Shown here in pieces: positions 45,313-50,102 of a stretch of 64,000 nucleotides of DNA. Under the pieces are notes generated by a model. It had not been told where the DNA came from, did no database searches, and worked only from the letters and a program-made list of their open reading frames with translations. Source of the stretch: Planctomycetota bacterium (lineage in GTDB: Bacteria > Planctomycetota > Phycisphaerae > Sedimentisphaerales > Anaerobacaceae); contig JAUWIG010000043.1 in the NCBI GenBank assembly GCA_030605475.1, forward strand, positions 20,405 to 84,404, in the 5' to 3' direction. The translations under genes and the position numbers were made by a program. Positions within the stretch are counted from its first letter, which is position 1; every line of letters starts with the position of its first letter.

Positions 45313-45629
45313 TCGGAGGAGGGTGATGAAAAGCTAAATATAGACTAATCGCTTTCAAAAAAGCGACTGTTCGCTTTTAACTGTCCTTAATTGTGTAATC
45401 GAACAAACGGCAAAAATTTCTTTAAGAAAAATTTGCAAAACTTTACACTTTTTTTGTGGAAAATCAAACCTCTAATCGTAAAAATCTAAATTTTTTTGCT
45501 ATTTTCCCACAAAATAGCCGAATCTGGCCCCAAAAGCCACGTTATTTTACGCTCGATAAACCACCTGTGTTCTCATATTTTAACCAATAACCTGTTATTT
45601 CTTTTTATTTACTCTTCAGAAAGGCTGAT

Positions 45630-45816
45630 ATGGATACCAAAATTACGATTGCAGACTTGCTGTCAGCCAAGCGCCAAAATCGCAAAATTGTTGCGGTTAG
45701 CTGCTACGACTATATCACAGCCCAGCTTGTTTCGCAGACCGATGTACAGATGATATTGGTGGGTGATTCCGCTGCCCAGGTTGTGCTGGGCTTTGAATCG
45801 ACGCTGCCGGCGACGG
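45630..45816 (+). pseudogene. panB: 5' fragment of panB (3-methyl-2-oxobutanoate hydroxymethyltransferase), about 62 codons only
   Basis: KITIADLLSAKRQNRKIVAVSCYDYITAQLVSQTDVQMILVGDSAAQVVLGFESTLPAT matches the PanB N-terminus. Similarity stops about 18 nt before the convergent asnA stop codon. The rest of the ORF is antisense to asnA. Confidence 0.7.
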
Positions 45817-45833
45817 CTAAACATAACGACTGT

Positions 45834-46964
45834 TTATTCTATGACGTGGATGTTTTTCTTTCTGCACATATCCTTGAATATCTTCGGCCAAACGGTGGCA
45901 CTGACCTCTCCAATGTGGGCTTTTTTGAGCAGTAACATAAAGGTACGGGACTGGCCGATGCCTCCGCCGACGCTGAGCGGGATTTCGTTGTTCAGGATTG
46001 CCTGGTGGTACGGGAGCTTCAGGAAATCAAGCTGGCCGGAAATCTCCAGCTGCTTTTTGAGCGTTTCGGCATTAACGCGGATACCCATTGATGTCAGCTC
46101 GTGGCGGCGCTTTGTCACCGGGTTCCAGACAAGGATGTCACCGTTAAGGCCGTGCATAGGTCTGCCGTCGTCGGAGGTAGTCTCAGTGACCCAGTCATCG
46201 TAGTCAGCGGCCCTGAGTTCGTGGGGGTAGCCGTCCTTGAGCACCCAGCCAATCCCGTAGATGAACATCGCGCCGAGGTCTCTGGCAATTTCTGTTTCTC
46301 GCTGCTTGCGCGGCAGGTCCAGGTAGCGGTCAAGTATGCCTTCGGCGTGTATGAAAGTGAGCTTGTCGGGCAGGTCTGGGTATTTATCTGTTTTTAGCTG
46401 GGGGAAAAGTTGCTGGACGTGGGCCTCAGCGCCTTTGATGACCTTCCAGATTTTCTCTACGATTTGCCTTAGGAACTGGAGGTTTCGCTGGTCTTTTGTT
46501 ATCGCCAGCTCCCAGTCCCACTGGTCCACATAGGCGCTGTGGTCGTGGTCGAGGAAGTAGTCCTTGCGGACGGCGCGCATATCAGTGAGCAGGCCCTCTC
46601 CGATGTCCATTTCGAACTGCTTGAGGGCGATGCGCTTCCACTTGGTCGCGGCTTGCACGACCTGGGCGTCGATTGGGTTCTTGTCGTGGTCGTTTGAGAT
46701 GTGGAACCCGATTGGGGTCCGTGAGCCATCACGGTCGAGGAGGTCGTTGATGCCGCTTTCGACGTCTACGATAAGAGGAACCGTAACGCGAATGAGGTTA
46801 AGCTCTTTGCAGAGATTGGCCTCGATGTAGTCTTTCACAGCATAGATGGCATTTTGCGTTTGCTTTGGGGACAGTAGAGAAGTGTAATCCTGTGGTAGGA
46901 TTTTCTCCAGCTCGGTATAGTCGCCAATACCTGGCCCGGCCAGGTCTGCTTTCTTGTCTGCCAT
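45834..46964 (-). CDS. asnA: aspartate--ammonia ligase (asparagine synthetase A)
   Basis: HSAYVDQWDWE and class-II synthetase-like blocks. The start is set at ATG 46964 with AGGAGAC 7 nt upstream. Confidence 0.8.
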   Translation of the reverse strand: MADKKADLAGPGIGDYTELEKILPQDYTSLLSPKQTQNAIYAVKDYIEANLCKELNLIRVTVPLIVDVESGINDLLDRDGSRTPIGFHISNDHDKNPIDAQVVQAATKWKRIALKQFEMDIGEGLLTDMRAVRKDYFLDHDHSAYVDQWDWELAITKDQRNLQFLRQIVEKIWKVIKGAEAHVQQLFPQLKTDKYPDLPDKLTFIHAEGILDRYLDLPRKQRETEIARDLGAMFIYGIGWVLKDGYPHELRAADYDDWVTETTSDDGRPMHGLNGDILVWNPVTKRRHELTSMGIRVNAETLKKQLEISGQLDFLKLPYHQAILNNEIPLSVGGGIGQSRTFMLLLKKAHIGEVSATVWPKIFKDMCRKKNIHVIE

Positions 46965-47081
46965 TGTGTTGTCTCCTGAGTGTTTTGTGGATAGGCACAT
47001 TCAATATAACATAGCTGGTCATTACTTAGGTGCGTTGCAAATAATAATCCCGGTGTTGATGCTTTTCAAGATTATTTTAGT
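46902..47081 (-). repeat. direct repeat copy A (asnA first about 21 codons, RBS and promoter-proximal block)
   Basis: Block 1 at 46902-46977 and block 2 at 47037-47081 are near-identical to 48645-48720 and 48778-48822. Confidence 0.85.
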
Positions 47082-47175
47082 ACAAAATCATATTTTATCT
47101 GGTATTTACTGAATATCACAGCAAAGATACAAACATTGCTCTATCTAAGCTTGGGACTAAAGCGGTCGGACGAGT

Positions 47176-48597
47176 CTACAAGTAGCCAAGACTCTTGAGT
47201 TTGTTGATTTCTTCCGGAGTGAGTGGTGGAAGCGAAGAGCCTGCTTTGCTAATACCCATAAAACTTTTCAGTTGTGCAAACATCGAATCGACGAGTGGGG
47301 TGTGCTTAGAGACGATATCAATTTTCTCCTTCGGGTCATTCTGCAGGTCAAAAAGCCGTTTTTCTTTTGTCAATTTATTATAATGGAGCTTATAGCGAGG
47401 ATGACGGACGGCACGTTTGATGTCATGCTTTACATCGTATTCCTGGGGCACTACGCTCTCTTTGCTGCCCTCGGCAAAGATGTAGCGCCGGCCCAGTTGA
47501 GTATCACTTTTTTCCCATAACCGGCACAGGTCGATACCGTCCATCGAATAAGGTATAGCAATGCCGAGCAGAGAGAGTACGGTGGGCATAACATCTACAA
47601 GGGAAATGATGTTGCTGAGGCGTTTTGGTTGGCCAAGCCCGGGTCCCCGCATGATGAGAGGGATGTGGATGAGTTCCTGGTACTGGGTTTGGCTGTGCAG
47701 GACTCCACCGTGGTCCAGGAATTCCTCGCCGTGGTCAGAAGTGACGATGATTAGCGAATTATCAAGTAGTCCCCTGGTTTCAAGGAGCTTTAGCAGCCGG
47801 GCGATGCCGTCGTCGAGCTGGCGAATGCTCGCGTCGTAGAGGTCAATCAGGTGCTCAGCGTCCACTTGGTTTAGCGAGACCAAATTCTTACGGAAAAGGG
47901 ATAGTTGCACGGTAGTGCCGTCTGCAACTCCCTTGTATGGACGGACGAACTGCTTCTCATAACGCAGCGTTGAACTATAATCGCTGTGGACGTCGTAGTA
48001 ATGCAGGAATAGGAAAAACGGCTGACTGCTGTTTTTCGATAGCCATTTTACGGTGTGGTGCTCAACTTCCGATGGCATCCACAGGTCAGGGATTTCCTCC
48101 ACGTAGGTAAAATCATCGAATCCTCTATCAAGCCCCCATTTTCGGCTGAGATATATGGAATTGACAACCGTTGCGGTTGAGAAGTCGTGTTCCTTAAGAA
48201 CATCGGCCAAAGTTACGACGTCGGTCGGCAAGTATTTGTCGAGTGATTTTAGACCGTGCCGATTAGGGTACAATCCGGTCAGCATGGACCCATGGGAGGG
48301 CAAGGTCCAGGGCGAAGTCGCCGTAACGTCCTCAAACAGCAGGCCCTGGGAGGCCAATTTGTCGAGTGTGGGTGAAGTGGGCCTTTGGTAGCCGTAGCAG
48401 CCGAGATGGTCGGCACGTAAAGTGTCAATCGAGATGAGTATGATGTTGGTCGGTCTTATATCAGCTTGCTTTTTCCCGCAGCCTCCCAGCCAAAGGCTAC
48501 CCGGCAGACCCGCCGCCAGACCACCGTAGAGTCCGTACTTCAACATCTCGCGCCGAGTCAGACCTCTGCTGTAAGTTCGCTTTCTACTCATACCCAT
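47176..48597 (-). CDS. sulfatase-like hydrolase (alkaline-phosphatase superfamily) lipoprotein, Thr variant of the active-site motif
   Basis: Tat-like/lipoprotein leader (TRREMLKYG..WLGGCG). SIDTLRADHLGCYGY and SDHGEEF blocks. The active-site position reads T-L-P-S-H instead of C/S-x-P-x-R. Confidence 0.8.
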   Translation of the reverse strand: MGMSRKRTYSRGLTRREMLKYGLYGGLAAGLPGSLWLGGCGKKQADIRPTNIILISIDTLRADHLGCYGYQRPTSPTLDKLASQGLLFEDVTATSPWTLPSHGSMLTGLYPNRHGLKSLDKYLPTDVVTLADVLKEHDFSTATVVNSIYLSRKWGLDRGFDDFTYVEEIPDLWMPSEVEHHTVKWLSKNSSQPFFLFLHYYDVHSDYSSTLRYEKQFVRPYKGVADGTTVQLSLFRKNLVSLNQVDAEHLIDLYDASIRQLDDGIARLLKLLETRGLLDNSLIIVTSDHGEEFLDHGGVLHSQTQYQELIHIPLIMRGPGLGQPKRLSNIISLVDVMPTVLSLLGIAIPYSMDGIDLCRLWEKSDTQLGRRYIFAEGSKESVVPQEYDVKHDIKRAVRHPRYKLHYNKLTKEKRLFDLQNDPKEKIDIVSKHTPLVDSMFAQLKSFMGISKAGSSLPPLTPEEINKLKSLGYL

Positions 48598-48644
48598 TCT
48601 GCCTTACTCTCAACATTATCAAGTGCCAAGCCTGTTCTCAGGAC

Positions 48645-48822
48645 TTTCTCCAGCTCGGTATAGTCGCCAATGCCTGGCCCAGCCAGGTCTGCTTTCTTGT
48701 CTGCCATTGTGTTGTCTCCTAAATGATTCGGGGCAAGCCATCCACAAGCTTCGCTTGAGGCTGCCACCCTACCGACTGCAAATAATAATCCCAGCGTTGA
48801 TGTTTTTCAAGATTATTTTAGT
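48645..48822 (-). repeat. direct repeat copy B (duplicated asnA 5' end and promoter-proximal block) upstream of the sulfatase-like gene
   Basis: It contains the ATG at 48707 plus 21 asnA-identical codons (MADKKADLAGPGIGDYTELEK). The sequence then diverges and stops, overlapping the sulfatase-like start codon. Confidence 0.85.
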
Positions 48823-48849
48823 TAAAAACTCCTTGTAAAATCCCGAGGA

Positions 48850-48903
48850 ATCGGGGCAAGCGTGGGGCCAAATATTTTTGGGACCCGCCTTCACGGGAAT
48901 GAC
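48850..48903 (-). repeat. composite REP-like module, inverted orientation
   Basis: The reverse complement reads gtcattcccgtgaaggcggg...ggccccacgcttgccccgat, the same two-part layout as 44270-44312. Confidence 0.55.
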
Positions 48904-49004
48904 ATTTTTGTAGTGGCTAAGAGATTGGTTTTGCGATAATATATTTGCCATCTTAATCCGAGTGTCTGGATTGTACGTTATCAGGTAGCCGTTAAGGTAA
49001 ATTT

Positions 49005-50102
49005 ATGGGCGAAGAGCAAAAAGATTCAACTTCAGGGACAGTTACAAAGAAAACGGTTCGGCCGGCTTTGATTGTATCAGAGAAAACAATCTCCGAGTAT
49101 TCGATATCCTTACATCATCTATTGGTTGGGCTGGCTGATGAGTCTATTGCTGTGAATCTGGTCTGTCCGCCGGGCTGCGATGTGGATTCGGTTGTATCGC
49201 CCTCTGTTGAGGTCGTCAGGCATCCGGTTTTTCAGCTGCCTTTGATGGGGTATCAAAATAAAAAGATACTTGTTGAACGGCTTGAAAAGTTCAAGCCAAG
49301 CGTTCTACACTGCTTGTGCGAGAGCAAAGCGAAACTTACGAGACAATTGGCGAGACAATTGGATTTGCCTTATGTGTTGACGGTTAATTCGCTGCAGGGG
49401 CGATTCGGTCAGCTTTCTATTTCGTTGAAGCGCTGTGCAAAAATCATAGTGCCGGCGAAGAGCATCGCGGCTAATATCGCGGCAGTTTACCCTAAGTTTG
49501 CCGAACGGATTGAGCAGATAAATATCGGCACTTTCGCGGGAGAGACAAGCGGCTGTTTCCGTGAGCCTGGGCGACTGGCGAGTGTAGTGGTAGGCGGTCC
49601 TTTGAGAAATGAGAGTGAGTTTGAGAAATTGCTTGGGGCGGTTAAGCATCTGGCGATTGAGGGGTATGAATTTATGCTGGTGTTGATAGGCGGGGGGCGG
49701 GCGGAGAGGCAACTGCGGGAATCGCTATCAGCACAGGGCCTTTTACAGATTGTTATTAGTGTTCCGAAATCGGCGCCGTGGCGTTCGGTTCTTGCGGCGG
49801 GCGATATTTTCATTCAGCCTGCAGCCAGCAGTGCCTTTAACCCTTTACTATTAGAGGCGATGAGTGTTGGGGCGGCTGTGGCAAGCTGTAAGGGTGGTGT
49901 TGACGATTTGATTATCGAGGGCAAGACCTGCGTTGTGTTTGACCCGGATGATGAGCTTAGTATAAGAGGGAGTCTGCAGGAGCTGCTCGACAGGCGAGAA
50001 TTTGCACAGCAACTGGCCAGAGGGGCACAGGAATATTTGAGAGAAAATCATACGGTCAGTAAAATGGTTTCTTCTATTTTGCAGATATACCGTGAGGCAT
50101 AA
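49005..50102 (+). CDS. GT-B glycosyltransferase (family 4/1-like)
   Basis: C-terminal half has FIQPAASSAFNPLLLEAMSVGAAVAS (E-x7-E-type block). Confidence 0.7.
   Translation: MGEEQKDSTSGTVTKKTVRPALIVSEKTISEYSISLHHLLVGLADESIAVNLVCPPGCDVDSVVSPSVEVVRHPVFQLPLMGYQNKKILVERLEKFKPSVLHCLCESKAKLTRQLARQLDLPYVLTVNSLQGRFGQLSISLKRCAKIIVPAKSIAANIAAVYPKFAERIEQINIGTFAGETSGCFREPGRLASVVVGGPLRNESEFEKLLGAVKHLAIEGYEFMLVLIGGGRAERQLRESLSAQGLLQIVISVPKSAPWRSVLAAGDIFIQPAASSAFNPLLLEAMSVGAAVASCKGGVDDLIIEGKTCVVFDPDDELSIRGSLQELLDRREFAQQLARGAQEYLRENHTVSKMVSSILQIYREA

What the first reader, a model, noticed from the sequence alone, without database searches (positions are those of the whole stretch)
46902..48822. ~180-bp duplication of the asnA promoter and 5' coding end flanks a sulfatase-like gene as direct repeats
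Block 1 covers the RBS, the ATG and the first 21 codons of asnA. It is 76 nt long with 2 mismatches, at 46902-46977 and again at 48645-48720. Block 2 (gcaaataataatccc.g.gttgatg.ttttcaagattattttagt) occurs at 47037-47081 and 48778-48822. The ~58 nt between the blocks are unrelated in the two copies. The upstream copy starts a 39-codon remnant ORF (MADKKADLAGPGIGDYTELEK...) whose stop overlaps the sulfatase-like start (GAATGGGTATGA). The sulfatase-like gene therefore appears to have captured asnA expression signals, possibly with translational coupling. Alternatively it was inserted into the asnA 5' region with a long target duplication. Together with the truncated panB, this marks a recently rearranged locus.
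Basis: seen in the sequence. Interest (0 to 1): 0.6.

Follow-up and report, generated by a model that had tools for sequence, protein, structure and literature searches.

The report
asnA promoter copied before sulfatase-like gene
In an uncultured planctomycete, a 190-base copy of the asparagine synthetase (asnA) promoter, ribosome-binding site and first 22 codons sits in front of a relocated sulfatase-family gene; this is a real but ordinary natural case of one gene borrowing another's expression signals.

Summary
All genes involved are on the minus strand. Two direct repeats of about 190 nt flank the sulfatase-family gene (47176-48597): 46897-47087 and 48640-48828.

Each repeat has two conserved modules:
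- a sigma-70-like core promoter (TTGAAA-17-TATTAT; 47/52 nt identical between copies);
- the translation start region (AGGAGA, ATG and 21-22 asnA codons; 78/81 nt identical).

Between the modules lies a 56-58 nt 5'UTR that differs between the copies. In the sulfatase copy it contains a REP-like hairpin that is dispersed in this genome and in related genera.

The direction of copying is clear. The N-terminus MADKKADLAGPGIGDY..ELEK is native to AsnA: it occurs in about 80 of roughly 100 relatives' loci, always once per locus. Sulfatase relatives and the in-genome paralog lack it. The paralog on contig 13 holds the ancestral, syntenic position.

The asnA piece is fused to the sulfatase leader about 42 nt before its ATG. 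This makes a 39-codon uORF whose TGA overlaps the sulfatase start (ATGGGTATGA).

The whole asnA-sulfatase block replaces the 3' part of panB and a small gene that relatives keep between panB and the glycosyltransferase.

Promoter capture is the best reading. No same-species relative was found. This is a known kind of event, of low to moderate interest.

The parts
45834..46964 (-). asnA (aspartate-ammonia ligase), 376 aa; parent of the duplicated 5' end
   Evidence: Pfam PF03590 E = 9e-82. 82-89% identical over residues 1-376 to orthologues in related genera.
46897..46977 (-). Repeat copy A, block 1: SD AGGAGA (46977-46972), ATG (46964-46962) and asnA codons 1-22
   Evidence: 78/81 identical to 48640-48720.
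46978..47035 (-). asnA 5'UTR (58 nt, A+T-rich, weakly structured), unrelated to its counterpart in copy B and unique in the genome
   Evidence: MFE -8.2 kcal/mol.
47036..47087 (-). Repeat copy A, block 2: asnA core promoter, -35 TTGAAA 47069-47064, 17-nt spacer, -10 TATTAT 47046-47041. The similarity ends about where the transcript should start.
   Evidence: 10/12 match; 47/52 identical to copy B. Similar cTTGACA-16/17-TAnnAT sites lie upstream of asnA in relatives (sequences).
47088..47175 (-). 88-nt spacer between the sulfatase stop and the asnA promoter. No terminator-like site on the minus strand; unique in the genome.
47176..48597 (-). Sulfatase-family (alkaline-phosphatase superfamily) gene, 473 aa, with a Tat motif (TRREMLK) and a lipobox (LGGC). 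It has T-L-P-S-H where S1 sulfatases have C/S-x-P-x-R. It is a relocated paralog.
   Evidence: PF00884 E = 8e-53. Alignment to PDB sulfatases. Paralog on contig 13: 73% aa, 80% nt.
48598..48639 (-). Native sulfatase leader (42 nt) with its own SD-like AAGG, about 76% identical to the leader of the contig-13 paralog
48588..48707 (-). Hybrid 39-codon uORF: asnA codons 1-22 fused in frame to the reading frame of the sulfatase leader. Its stop TGA overlaps the sulfatase start region (ATGGGTATGA).
   Evidence: The paralog has an 18-codon uORF in the same frame with the same overlap.
48640..48720 (-). Repeat copy B, block 1: SD AGGAGA (48720-48715), ATG (48707-48705) and 21-22 asnA-derived codons. 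The junction with the sulfatase leader is at 48640/48639.
48721..48776 (-). Replaced 5'UTR of copy B (56 nt). It contains a REP-like hairpin core, GGGTGGCAGCCTCAAGCGAAGCTTGTGGATGG, at 48769-48738.
   Evidence: fold -17 to -19 kcal/mol.
48777..48828 (-). Repeat copy B, block 2: copy of the asnA core promoter, -35 TTGAAA 48810-48805 and -10 TATTAT 48787-48782
45630..45822 (+). panB remnant (residues 1-61 of about 260), abutting the 3' end of asnA; one boundary of the rearranged block
   Evidence: PF02548 profile positions 1-61 only. Full-length in 30 of 40 relatives.
49005..50102 (+). GT4 glycosyltransferase, divergent from copy B. In relatives it lies downstream of panB and a 140-aa gene; other boundary of the rearranged block.

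Best explanation
This is a real dispersed direct duplication. About 190 nt of the asnA 5' region was copied and joined by illegitimate recombination to the leader of a relocated sulfatase-family paralog, about 42 nt before its start codon. The copied piece comprises the core promoter, the 5'UTR, the Shine-Dalgarno site, the ATG and codons 1-22. The likely result is a new transcription unit: asnA-type promoter, hybrid 39-codon uORF, sulfatase gene. No terminator separates it from the second asnA promoter and asnA itself. The uORF starts at asnA's strong AGGAGA-N7-ATG site and ends in ATGGGTATGA over the sulfatase start. Ribosomes finishing it could therefore open the sulfatase start region or re-initiate there, and the sulfatase gene also keeps its own AAGG site. 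After the duplication, the UTR of at least one copy was replaced; in copy B this involved a REP-like hairpin element. Shown here: the anatomy, the direction of copying (asnA to sulfatase), the junction position, the derived position of this paralog and the locus rearrangement. Inferred: promoter activity, coupling, the adaptive value and the exact order of events. One possible order is a Cit+-type tandem duplication of sulfatase-spacer-promoter-asnA5', followed by loss of the upstream sulfatase copy in the rearrangement that also destroyed panB.
For: The repeats are real and are the only two copies in the genome. Block 2 is a promoter-like site with both hexamers intact; all 3 differences inside it fall in the spacer. 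Block 1 differs by 2 synonymous changes and one Ile-to-Val change. The AsnA N-terminus KKADLAGPGIGDY..ELEK is conserved in 14 genomes of related genera and about 65 of 80 metagenome loci, and never appears twice in a locus. The sulfatase paralog and its relatives have no such leader. Their nucleotide similarity to the window copy starts 42-51 nt upstream of the ATG, which places the junction at 48640/48639. The contig-13 paralog shares its gene neighbourhood (281-aa membrane protein, then sulfatase, then a convergent AP-superfamily gene) with a 69%-identical relative (L244), so the window copy is the displaced one. No minus-strand terminator-like site lies between the sulfatase gene and asnA. 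Relatives G010 and G011 have panB, a 140-aa gene and GT4 where this genome has a panB stub, asnA, the sulfatase gene, the repeat and GT4. Promoter capture by duplication, and promoter capture at microhomologies, are documented mechanisms (PMC5918244 for the duplication; PMC6614815 for microhomology-mediated recombination).
Against: There are no expression data, so neither promoter is shown to be active. No genome of the same species or genus exists in the collections: the best AsnA match is 89% and the best non-self sulfatase match is 70%. An 'empty site' or intermediate state therefore could not be seen. Only one sulfatase copy lies at the locus, so a simple Cit+-type tandem duplication is not the present structure. 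The uORF peptide shows no sign of selection: 9 of 10 leader differences from the paralog change the amino acid. The open frame through 17 leader codons has about a 44% chance of arising at random. The sulfatase gene keeps its own SD, so coupling is not required.
Confidence: 0.7

Rival explanations
1. Same structure, different history. A sulfatase cassette (leader, gene and 88-nt tail; 47088-48639) was inserted into the asnA 5' coding region with a roughly 190-nt target duplication, for example by fill-in of a long staggered break, by template switching during replication, or by Campbell-type integration of a circle carrying the homology. In this reading the effect on expression is a by-product.
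For: The cassette is flanked exactly by the two repeats. Removing the cassette and one repeat would restore a single intact asnA. The window paralog is the displaced copy. No relative has a sulfatase gene next to asnA.
Against: It needs two new junctions instead of one. No transposase, terminal inverted repeats or short target duplication were found. Target duplications of 190 nt are not a known property of bacterial mobile elements (my own knowledge). It does not explain the replaced UTR any better.
Confidence: 0.2
2. Neutral relic. The upstream copy is a leftover of the rearrangement with no role, and the sulfatase gene is silent or expressed by other means.
For: The locus is heavily rearranged (panB destroyed). 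The UTR of copy B was overwritten by a REP-like element. There are no expression data.
Against: In copy B the -35 and -10 hexamers, the SD, the spacing and the ATG are all intact, while substitutions fall in the promoter spacer and at synonymous sites. The sulfatase ORF is intact and full-length relative to its paralog. No other promoter-like site precedes it, except a weaker overlapping one at 48839-48812.
Confidence: 0.15
3. Assembly or binning artefact. The second copy arose by mis-joining reads from two strains or two loci in a metagenome-assembled genome.
For: The genome is a 58-contig MAG, and reads could not be inspected.
Against: Both copies are traversed completely, each with a unique UTR and unique flanks. 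The longest exact run shared by the copies is 39 nt. The asnA/sulfatase-leader junction shares no long word with either parent sequence, so a k-mer collision cannot create it. The copies differ at 8 of 133 aligned positions, so they are not a collapsed or duplicated identical repeat.
Confidence: 0.05
4. The asnA-like leader is an old, independent feature of this sulfatase family.
For: None found.
Against: It is absent from the paralog and from the G015 and G011 orthologues and L244/L245. The peptide motif occurs only at AsnA N-termini in about 100 loci. The 96% nucleotide identity includes synonymous sites.
Confidence: 0.01

Closest known systems
Promoter capture by segmental duplication, e.g. 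the rnk-citT module of Cit+ E. coli in the long-term evolution experiment (PMC5918244)
   Same: A copy of a neighbouring gene's promoter plus the 5' end of its ORF is placed in front of another gene. This makes a truncated hybrid ORF followed by the intact captured gene, while the donor gene keeps its own copy.
   Different: Here only one copy of the captured gene is present, so it is not a head-to-tail tandem array. The event is natural, older (about 6% divergence, with a replaced UTR) and in an uncultured planctomycete. Expression is not shown.
Microhomology-mediated promoter capture activating transferred or silent genes (PMC6614815)
   Same: An illegitimate junction brings a resident promoter to a promoter-less gene that retains an SD-like site of its own.
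   Different: Those events were deletions or amplifications selected in the laboratory. Here microhomology at the junction can only be guessed from the paralog's leader (asnA GAGAAAATCC / paralog AGGAAAATGC / hybrid GAGAAAGTCC).
Translationally coupled upstream ORFs with ATGA-type stop/start overlap
   Same: The uORF has a strong SD and its TGA overlaps the downstream ATG.
   Different: There is no conservation of the peptide and no evidence that downstream translation depends on it. The downstream gene has its own SD.
REP/BIME-type extragenic palindromes
   Same: The 32-nt hairpin in the UTR of copy B is dispersed, intergenic, found on both strands, sometimes in inverted doublets or with a nested second hairpin. 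Genomes that carry it also encode Y1-transposase homologues.
   Different: The core is almost identical across at least 10 genera. The link to a RAYT-type enzyme is only a co-occurrence in 5 genomes.

Membership tests
Promoter capture by duplication (Cit+ rnk-citT type) | A second copy of a resident gene's promoter-bearing 5' segment exists, and the donor gene is identifiable | tested here: met
   Two copies only. The donor is asnA, because its N-terminus is conserved in about 80 relatives.
Promoter capture by duplication (Cit+ rnk-citT type) | The copy lies upstream of, and in the same orientation as, a different intact gene, joined at a novel junction | tested here: met
   Junction at 48640/48639, 42 nt before the sulfatase ATG.
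Promoter capture by duplication (Cit+ rnk-citT type) | Head-to-tail tandem array with two copies of the captured gene | tested here: not met
   Only one sulfatase gene lies between GT4 and asnA. The other paralog is on contig 13 at 73% identity.
Promoter capture by duplication (Cit+ rnk-citT type) | The captured gene is transcribed from the copied promoter | not testable with these tools
   Only a consensus match, TTGAAA-17-TATTAT.
Transposable element insertion with target-site duplication | Short target duplication, terminal inverted repeats, transposase or other mobility gene | tested here: not met
   The repeats are 189-191 nt. There are no terminal inverted repeats. The cassette encodes only the sulfatase-family protein.
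Translationally coupled uORF | uORF with SD and start codon whose stop overlaps or abuts the downstream start | tested here: met
   AGGAGA-N7-ATG; TGA 48590-48588 overlaps ATG 48591-48589.
Translationally coupled uORF | The uORF is conserved among relatives of the downstream gene | tested here: inconclusive
   The paralog has an 18-codon uORF in the same frame with the same overlap. G015, G011 and L244 do not, and the peptide is not conserved.
S1 formylglycine-dependent sulfatases | C/S-x-P-x-R motif providing the formylglycine nucleophile | tested here: not met
   The query has T-L-P-S-H aligned to S-T-P-A-R of PDB 7oz8. The sulfatase fold (PF00884) is met, so 'sulfatase-like' is right but sulfatase activity is doubtful.
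REP-like extragenic palindromes | Short imperfect palindrome in many intergenic copies on both strands | tested here: met
   5 copies in this genome, 2 forward and 3 reverse, with no fixed orientation relative to the flanking genes. Up to 48 copies in relatives, and 0 matches for the control pattern.
REP-like extragenic palindromes | Cognate RAYT (Y1 transposase) flanked by the repeats | tested here: inconclusive
   PF01797 homologues are present in the 4 tested genomes that have the hairpin and absent in G015, which lacks it. Flanking was not examined.

The most novel reading that the evidence does not exclude
The duplicated module may be a selected regulatory graft. The asnA promoter and start region were fused in frame onto a pre-existing start-overlapping uORF of the sulfatase family. 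The relocated paralog would then be transcribed, and translationally coupled, under asnA-type (nitrogen/aspartate-linked) control, and would form an operon with asnA by read-through. That would be a fixed natural counterpart of the laboratory Cit+ event. The REP-like hairpin at the 5' end of the new mRNA might act as a stabiliser.
Probability: 0.25. Interest if true: 0.4.

Novelty: new member of a known kind. Interest (0 to 1): 0.25.

Why it matters
Promoter capture by duplication is well known from laboratory evolution, but clean natural examples with donor, recipient and junction all identifiable are less often described. This one shows how a displaced paralog in a small planctomycete genome could regain expression signals. 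It also shows which parts of a 5' region stay conserved afterwards: the core promoter and the translation start region are kept, while the UTR is freely replaced. It does not open a new question. Its value is as a tidy annotated example and as a marker of a rearranged locus that has probably lost panB.

Tried and rejected
1. Known RNA families. Rfam at E <= 10 over 45400-49100, and at E <= 1 over six relatives' asnA loci, gave nothing.

2. Hairpin in the UTR of copy B as a 5'UTR regulatory RNA. Rejected: the other copies lie downstream of genes or antisense to the flanking genes, on both strands.

3. Residual homology or inversion between the two UTRs. Not significant: 11% of shuffles score as well, and the reverse complement scores no better.

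4. Same-species comparison. Exact-protein look-ups found nothing. The genus holds only this genome. The metagenome scan gave at best 89% AsnA identity. The protein search gave at best 70% non-self sulfatase identity.

5. Conserved synteny of asnA with relatives. None of the window's neighbouring genes lies next to asnA in 92 loci. The contig-13 neighbourhood is likewise not shared with G015 or G011.

7. Mobile-element explanation. No inverted repeats or mobility genes in the cassette.
Full report
**1. What is there**

The region was read on both strands, and the relevant genes lie on the minus strand. In transcription order they are:
- a copy of a promoter and translation start region (48828-48640);
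- a sulfatase-family gene (48597-47176; PF00884 E = 8e-53);
- the second copy (47087-46897);
- asnA (46964-45834; PF03590 E = 9e-82).

A GT4 glycosyltransferase diverges from the upstream end (49005-50102, plus strand). A panB stub converges on the asnA 3' end (45630-45822, plus strand).

**2. The repeat**

- The repeat finder gives two direct families with spacings of 1743 and 1741 nt.
- Block 1 is 81 nt, 78/81 identical, and comprises AGGAGACAACACA, the ATG and codons 2-22.
- Block 2 is 52 nt, 47/52 identical.
- A BLAST of copy B against the whole 2.4-Mb assembly finds only copy A, at E = 6.6e-39. The repeat is therefore not chance and not a multi-copy element.
- The 58- and 56-nt stretches between the blocks are unrelated (alignment score within the shuffle distribution).

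**3. What the blocks are**

Block 2 matches a sigma-70-type promoter, TTGAAA-17-TATTAT, in both copies. The three differences inside it fall in the spacer. The similarity stops about where transcription should start (around 47036 and 48777).

Block 1 begins exactly at the Shine-Dalgarno sequence. Its three differences are two synonymous changes (GCC/GCT, GGT/GGC) and ATC/GTC at codon 22.

The two conserved modules are therefore the core promoter and the translation start region. The untranslated leader between them has been exchanged.

**4. Which copy is the parent**

The peptide MADKKADLAGPGIGDY(T/A)ELEKILPQDY is the native N-terminus of this AsnA subfamily.
- Orthologues from 13 related genomes align from residue 1-3 at 82-89% identity.
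- The motif stands at the AsnA start in about 65 of 80 metagenome loci.
- No locus has a second copy.

Promoter-like cTTGACA-16/17-TAnnAT sites also precede asnA in relatives (sequences).

The sulfatase family lacks the motif. This holds for the in-genome paralog on contig 13 (73% aa), two G015 orthologues, a G011 orthologue and two metagenome relatives at 69-70%.

**5. The junction**

Nucleotide similarity between the window sulfatase gene and its paralog (80%) continues 42-51 nt upstream of the ATG. The asnA similarity ends at ...GAGAAAGTCCT (48640), and the sulfatase leader starts at GAGAACAGGCTTGG (48639).

The three sequences at that point are:
- asnA: GAGAAAATCCTACC
- paralog leader: AGGAAAATGCGGAG
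- hybrid: GAGAAAGTCCTGAG

This is compatible with a short microhomology (GAAAAT) at an illegitimate junction. It cannot be proved, because the paralog is only a proxy for the true parent.

**6. The uORF**

The fusion creates a 39-codon ORF ending in TGA inside ATGGGTATGA. The stop overlaps the second Met codon and lies six bases after the first. The public gene call for this protein starts at the second ATG (471 aa).

The paralog has its own 18-codon uORF (MRSKGLTPNNVKSKAGWV*) in the same frame with the same overlap. The asnA piece is thus fused in frame to what may be an older uORF.

I do not lean on this, for three reasons:
- nine of the ten leader differences change the amino acid;
- a 17-codon open stretch has about a 44% chance of arising at random;
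- other relatives lack such a uORF.

The sulfatase leader also keeps its own AAGG site four bases before the first ATG.

**7. The replaced UTR**

The UTR of copy B contains GGGTGGCAGCCTCAAGCGAAGCTTGTGGATGG (48769-48738).
- This hairpin has four more copies in the genome.
- It lies downstream of genes, or between genes on the opposite strand, with no fixed orientation.
- It occurs in 9 of the 40 related genomes searched, with up to 48 copies per genome, about equally on both strands.
- It is sometimes present as inverted doublets or with a second hairpin nested in the loop.

It behaves as a REP-like element, not as a leader RNA. Rfam has no match. It explains 32 of the 56 nt. The asnA UTR (copy A) is unique in the genome and weakly structured. 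In both leaders the SD and ATG stay unpaired in the predicted folds.

**8. The wider locus**

- panB is present only as residues 1-61, whereas 30 of the 40 relatives searched have a full-length gene.
- In G010 and G011 the order is panB, a 140-aa gene, then GT4, all on one strand.
- That 140-aa gene is not found in this genome, which is 91% complete.
- The 3-kb block from the upstream promoter copy to the asnA stop therefore replaces the 3' part of panB plus that gene, in inverted orientation.
- None of the window's neighbouring genes accompanies asnA in 92 other loci.
- The contig-13 paralog sits in a neighbourhood shared with relative L244: a 281-aa membrane protein, the sulfatase gene, then a convergent AP-superfamily gene. 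The window copy is thus the displaced paralog, which had lost its native upstream context.

**9. Mechanism and history**

The best reading is promoter and start-site capture. A displaced, promoter-less paralog acquired a copy of the asnA expression signals. Because no terminator-like site follows the sulfatase gene, it probably also reads through into asnA.

Two histories give the same structure.
- **(a) Tandem duplication.** A Cit+-type tandem duplication of sulfatase-spacer-promoter-asnA5' needs only one novel junction. Loss of the upstream sulfatase copy would follow at the rearrangement breakpoint next to GT4.
- **(b) Insertion.** A sulfatase cassette was inserted into asnA with a 190-nt duplication.

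I slightly prefer (a), because a rearrangement at that spot is independently evident. No relative close enough to decide exists. The laboratory precedents are the rnk-citT duplication (PMC5918244) and microhomology-mediated promoter capture (PMC6614815).

**10. Artefact check**

The sequence itself argues against an artefact:
- both copies are crossed completely, each with unique flanks;
- they differ at 8 of 133 aligned bases and in the whole UTR;
- the longest shared exact run is 39 nt;
- the asnA/sulfatase junction shares no long word with either parent.

**11. The enzyme**

The protein has a Tat motif and a lipobox, and it has T-L-P-S-H where S1 sulfatases have C/S-x-P-x-R (alignment to PDB 7oz8). 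'Sulfatase-like' is correct for the fold. A formylglycine-dependent sulfatase activity is unlikely, and a phosphoester substrate is a reasonable guess from the Thr/His pattern (my own knowledge of NPP-type enzymes; not tested).

**12. Organism and verdict**

The organism is an uncultured Planctomycetota MAG. Its relatives include CP070728.1 and Pirellulales-labelled MAGs.

This is a natural member of a known class of event, of modest interest.

Noticed in passing
window 48738-48769 (-); also G000 contigs C27, C41, C44, C51 (L010-L013); relatives G007, G009, G012, G013, G016, G024: A 28-32-nt hairpin, GGGTGGCAGCCTCAAGC-GNA-GCTTGGGGATGG, is a dispersed intergenic repeat. It is almost identical across at least 10 genera of this planctomycete family, with up to 48 copies per genome on both strands. 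It is sometimes found as inverted doublets or with a second hairpin nested in the loop. There is no Rfam match. Y1-transposase (PF01797) homologues occur in the 4 tested genomes that carry it and not in G015, which lacks it.
   Followed up: partly
window 47176-48597 (-): The sulfatase-fold Tat-lipoprotein has T-L-P-S-H in place of the C/S-x-P-x-R formylglycine motif, so it is probably not a true sulfatase. The family is widespread: 670 proteins at E <= 1e-100. The public gene call starts at the second ATG (471 aa).
   Followed up: partly
window 45630-45822 (+) and 48829-49004: panB is cut after residue 61, and no other PF02548 match exists in this 91%-complete genome. The 140-aa gene that relatives keep between panB and GT4 is also missing. 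The organism may depend on external pantoate or pantothenate.
   Followed up: partly
AsnA residues 1-36 (window 46857-46964, -); L015-L128: This AsnA subfamily carries a strongly conserved N-terminal extension of about 22 residues (KKADLAGPGIGDY.ELEK.LP.DY) ahead of the Pfam AsnA core, which starts at residue 37. It occurs in about 80 loci from many environments. Its role is unknown.
   Followed up: no
L017 (G021) and L019 (G024), about 60-150 nt upstream of asnA: Some relatives have long asnA leaders with a shared CCCCCA...TGGGGGCTAA(A/T)TATTT hairpin that looks like a terminator or attenuator. Rfam has no match. This genome's asnA leader lacks it.
   Followed up: no
window 47041-47078 and 48782-48819 (-): Both promoter copies keep a 7-nt inverted repeat, AATAATC...GATTATT, that brackets the -35 hexamer and overlaps the -10. 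It could be an operator, or simply A+T-rich chance.
   Followed up: no
G000:C13:140667-144358 (L140) and L244: The ancestral sulfatase-paralog neighbourhood is conserved between this genome and a 69%-identical metagenome relative. It consists of a 281-aa membrane protein, the sulfatase-like gene and a convergent second alkaline-phosphatase-superfamily gene, and may be a functional unit.
   Followed up: no
window 48835-48905: The 176 nt between copy B and GT4 contain further short dispersed modules, with weak matches on contigs C9, C12, C13, C54 and others.
   Followed up: partly
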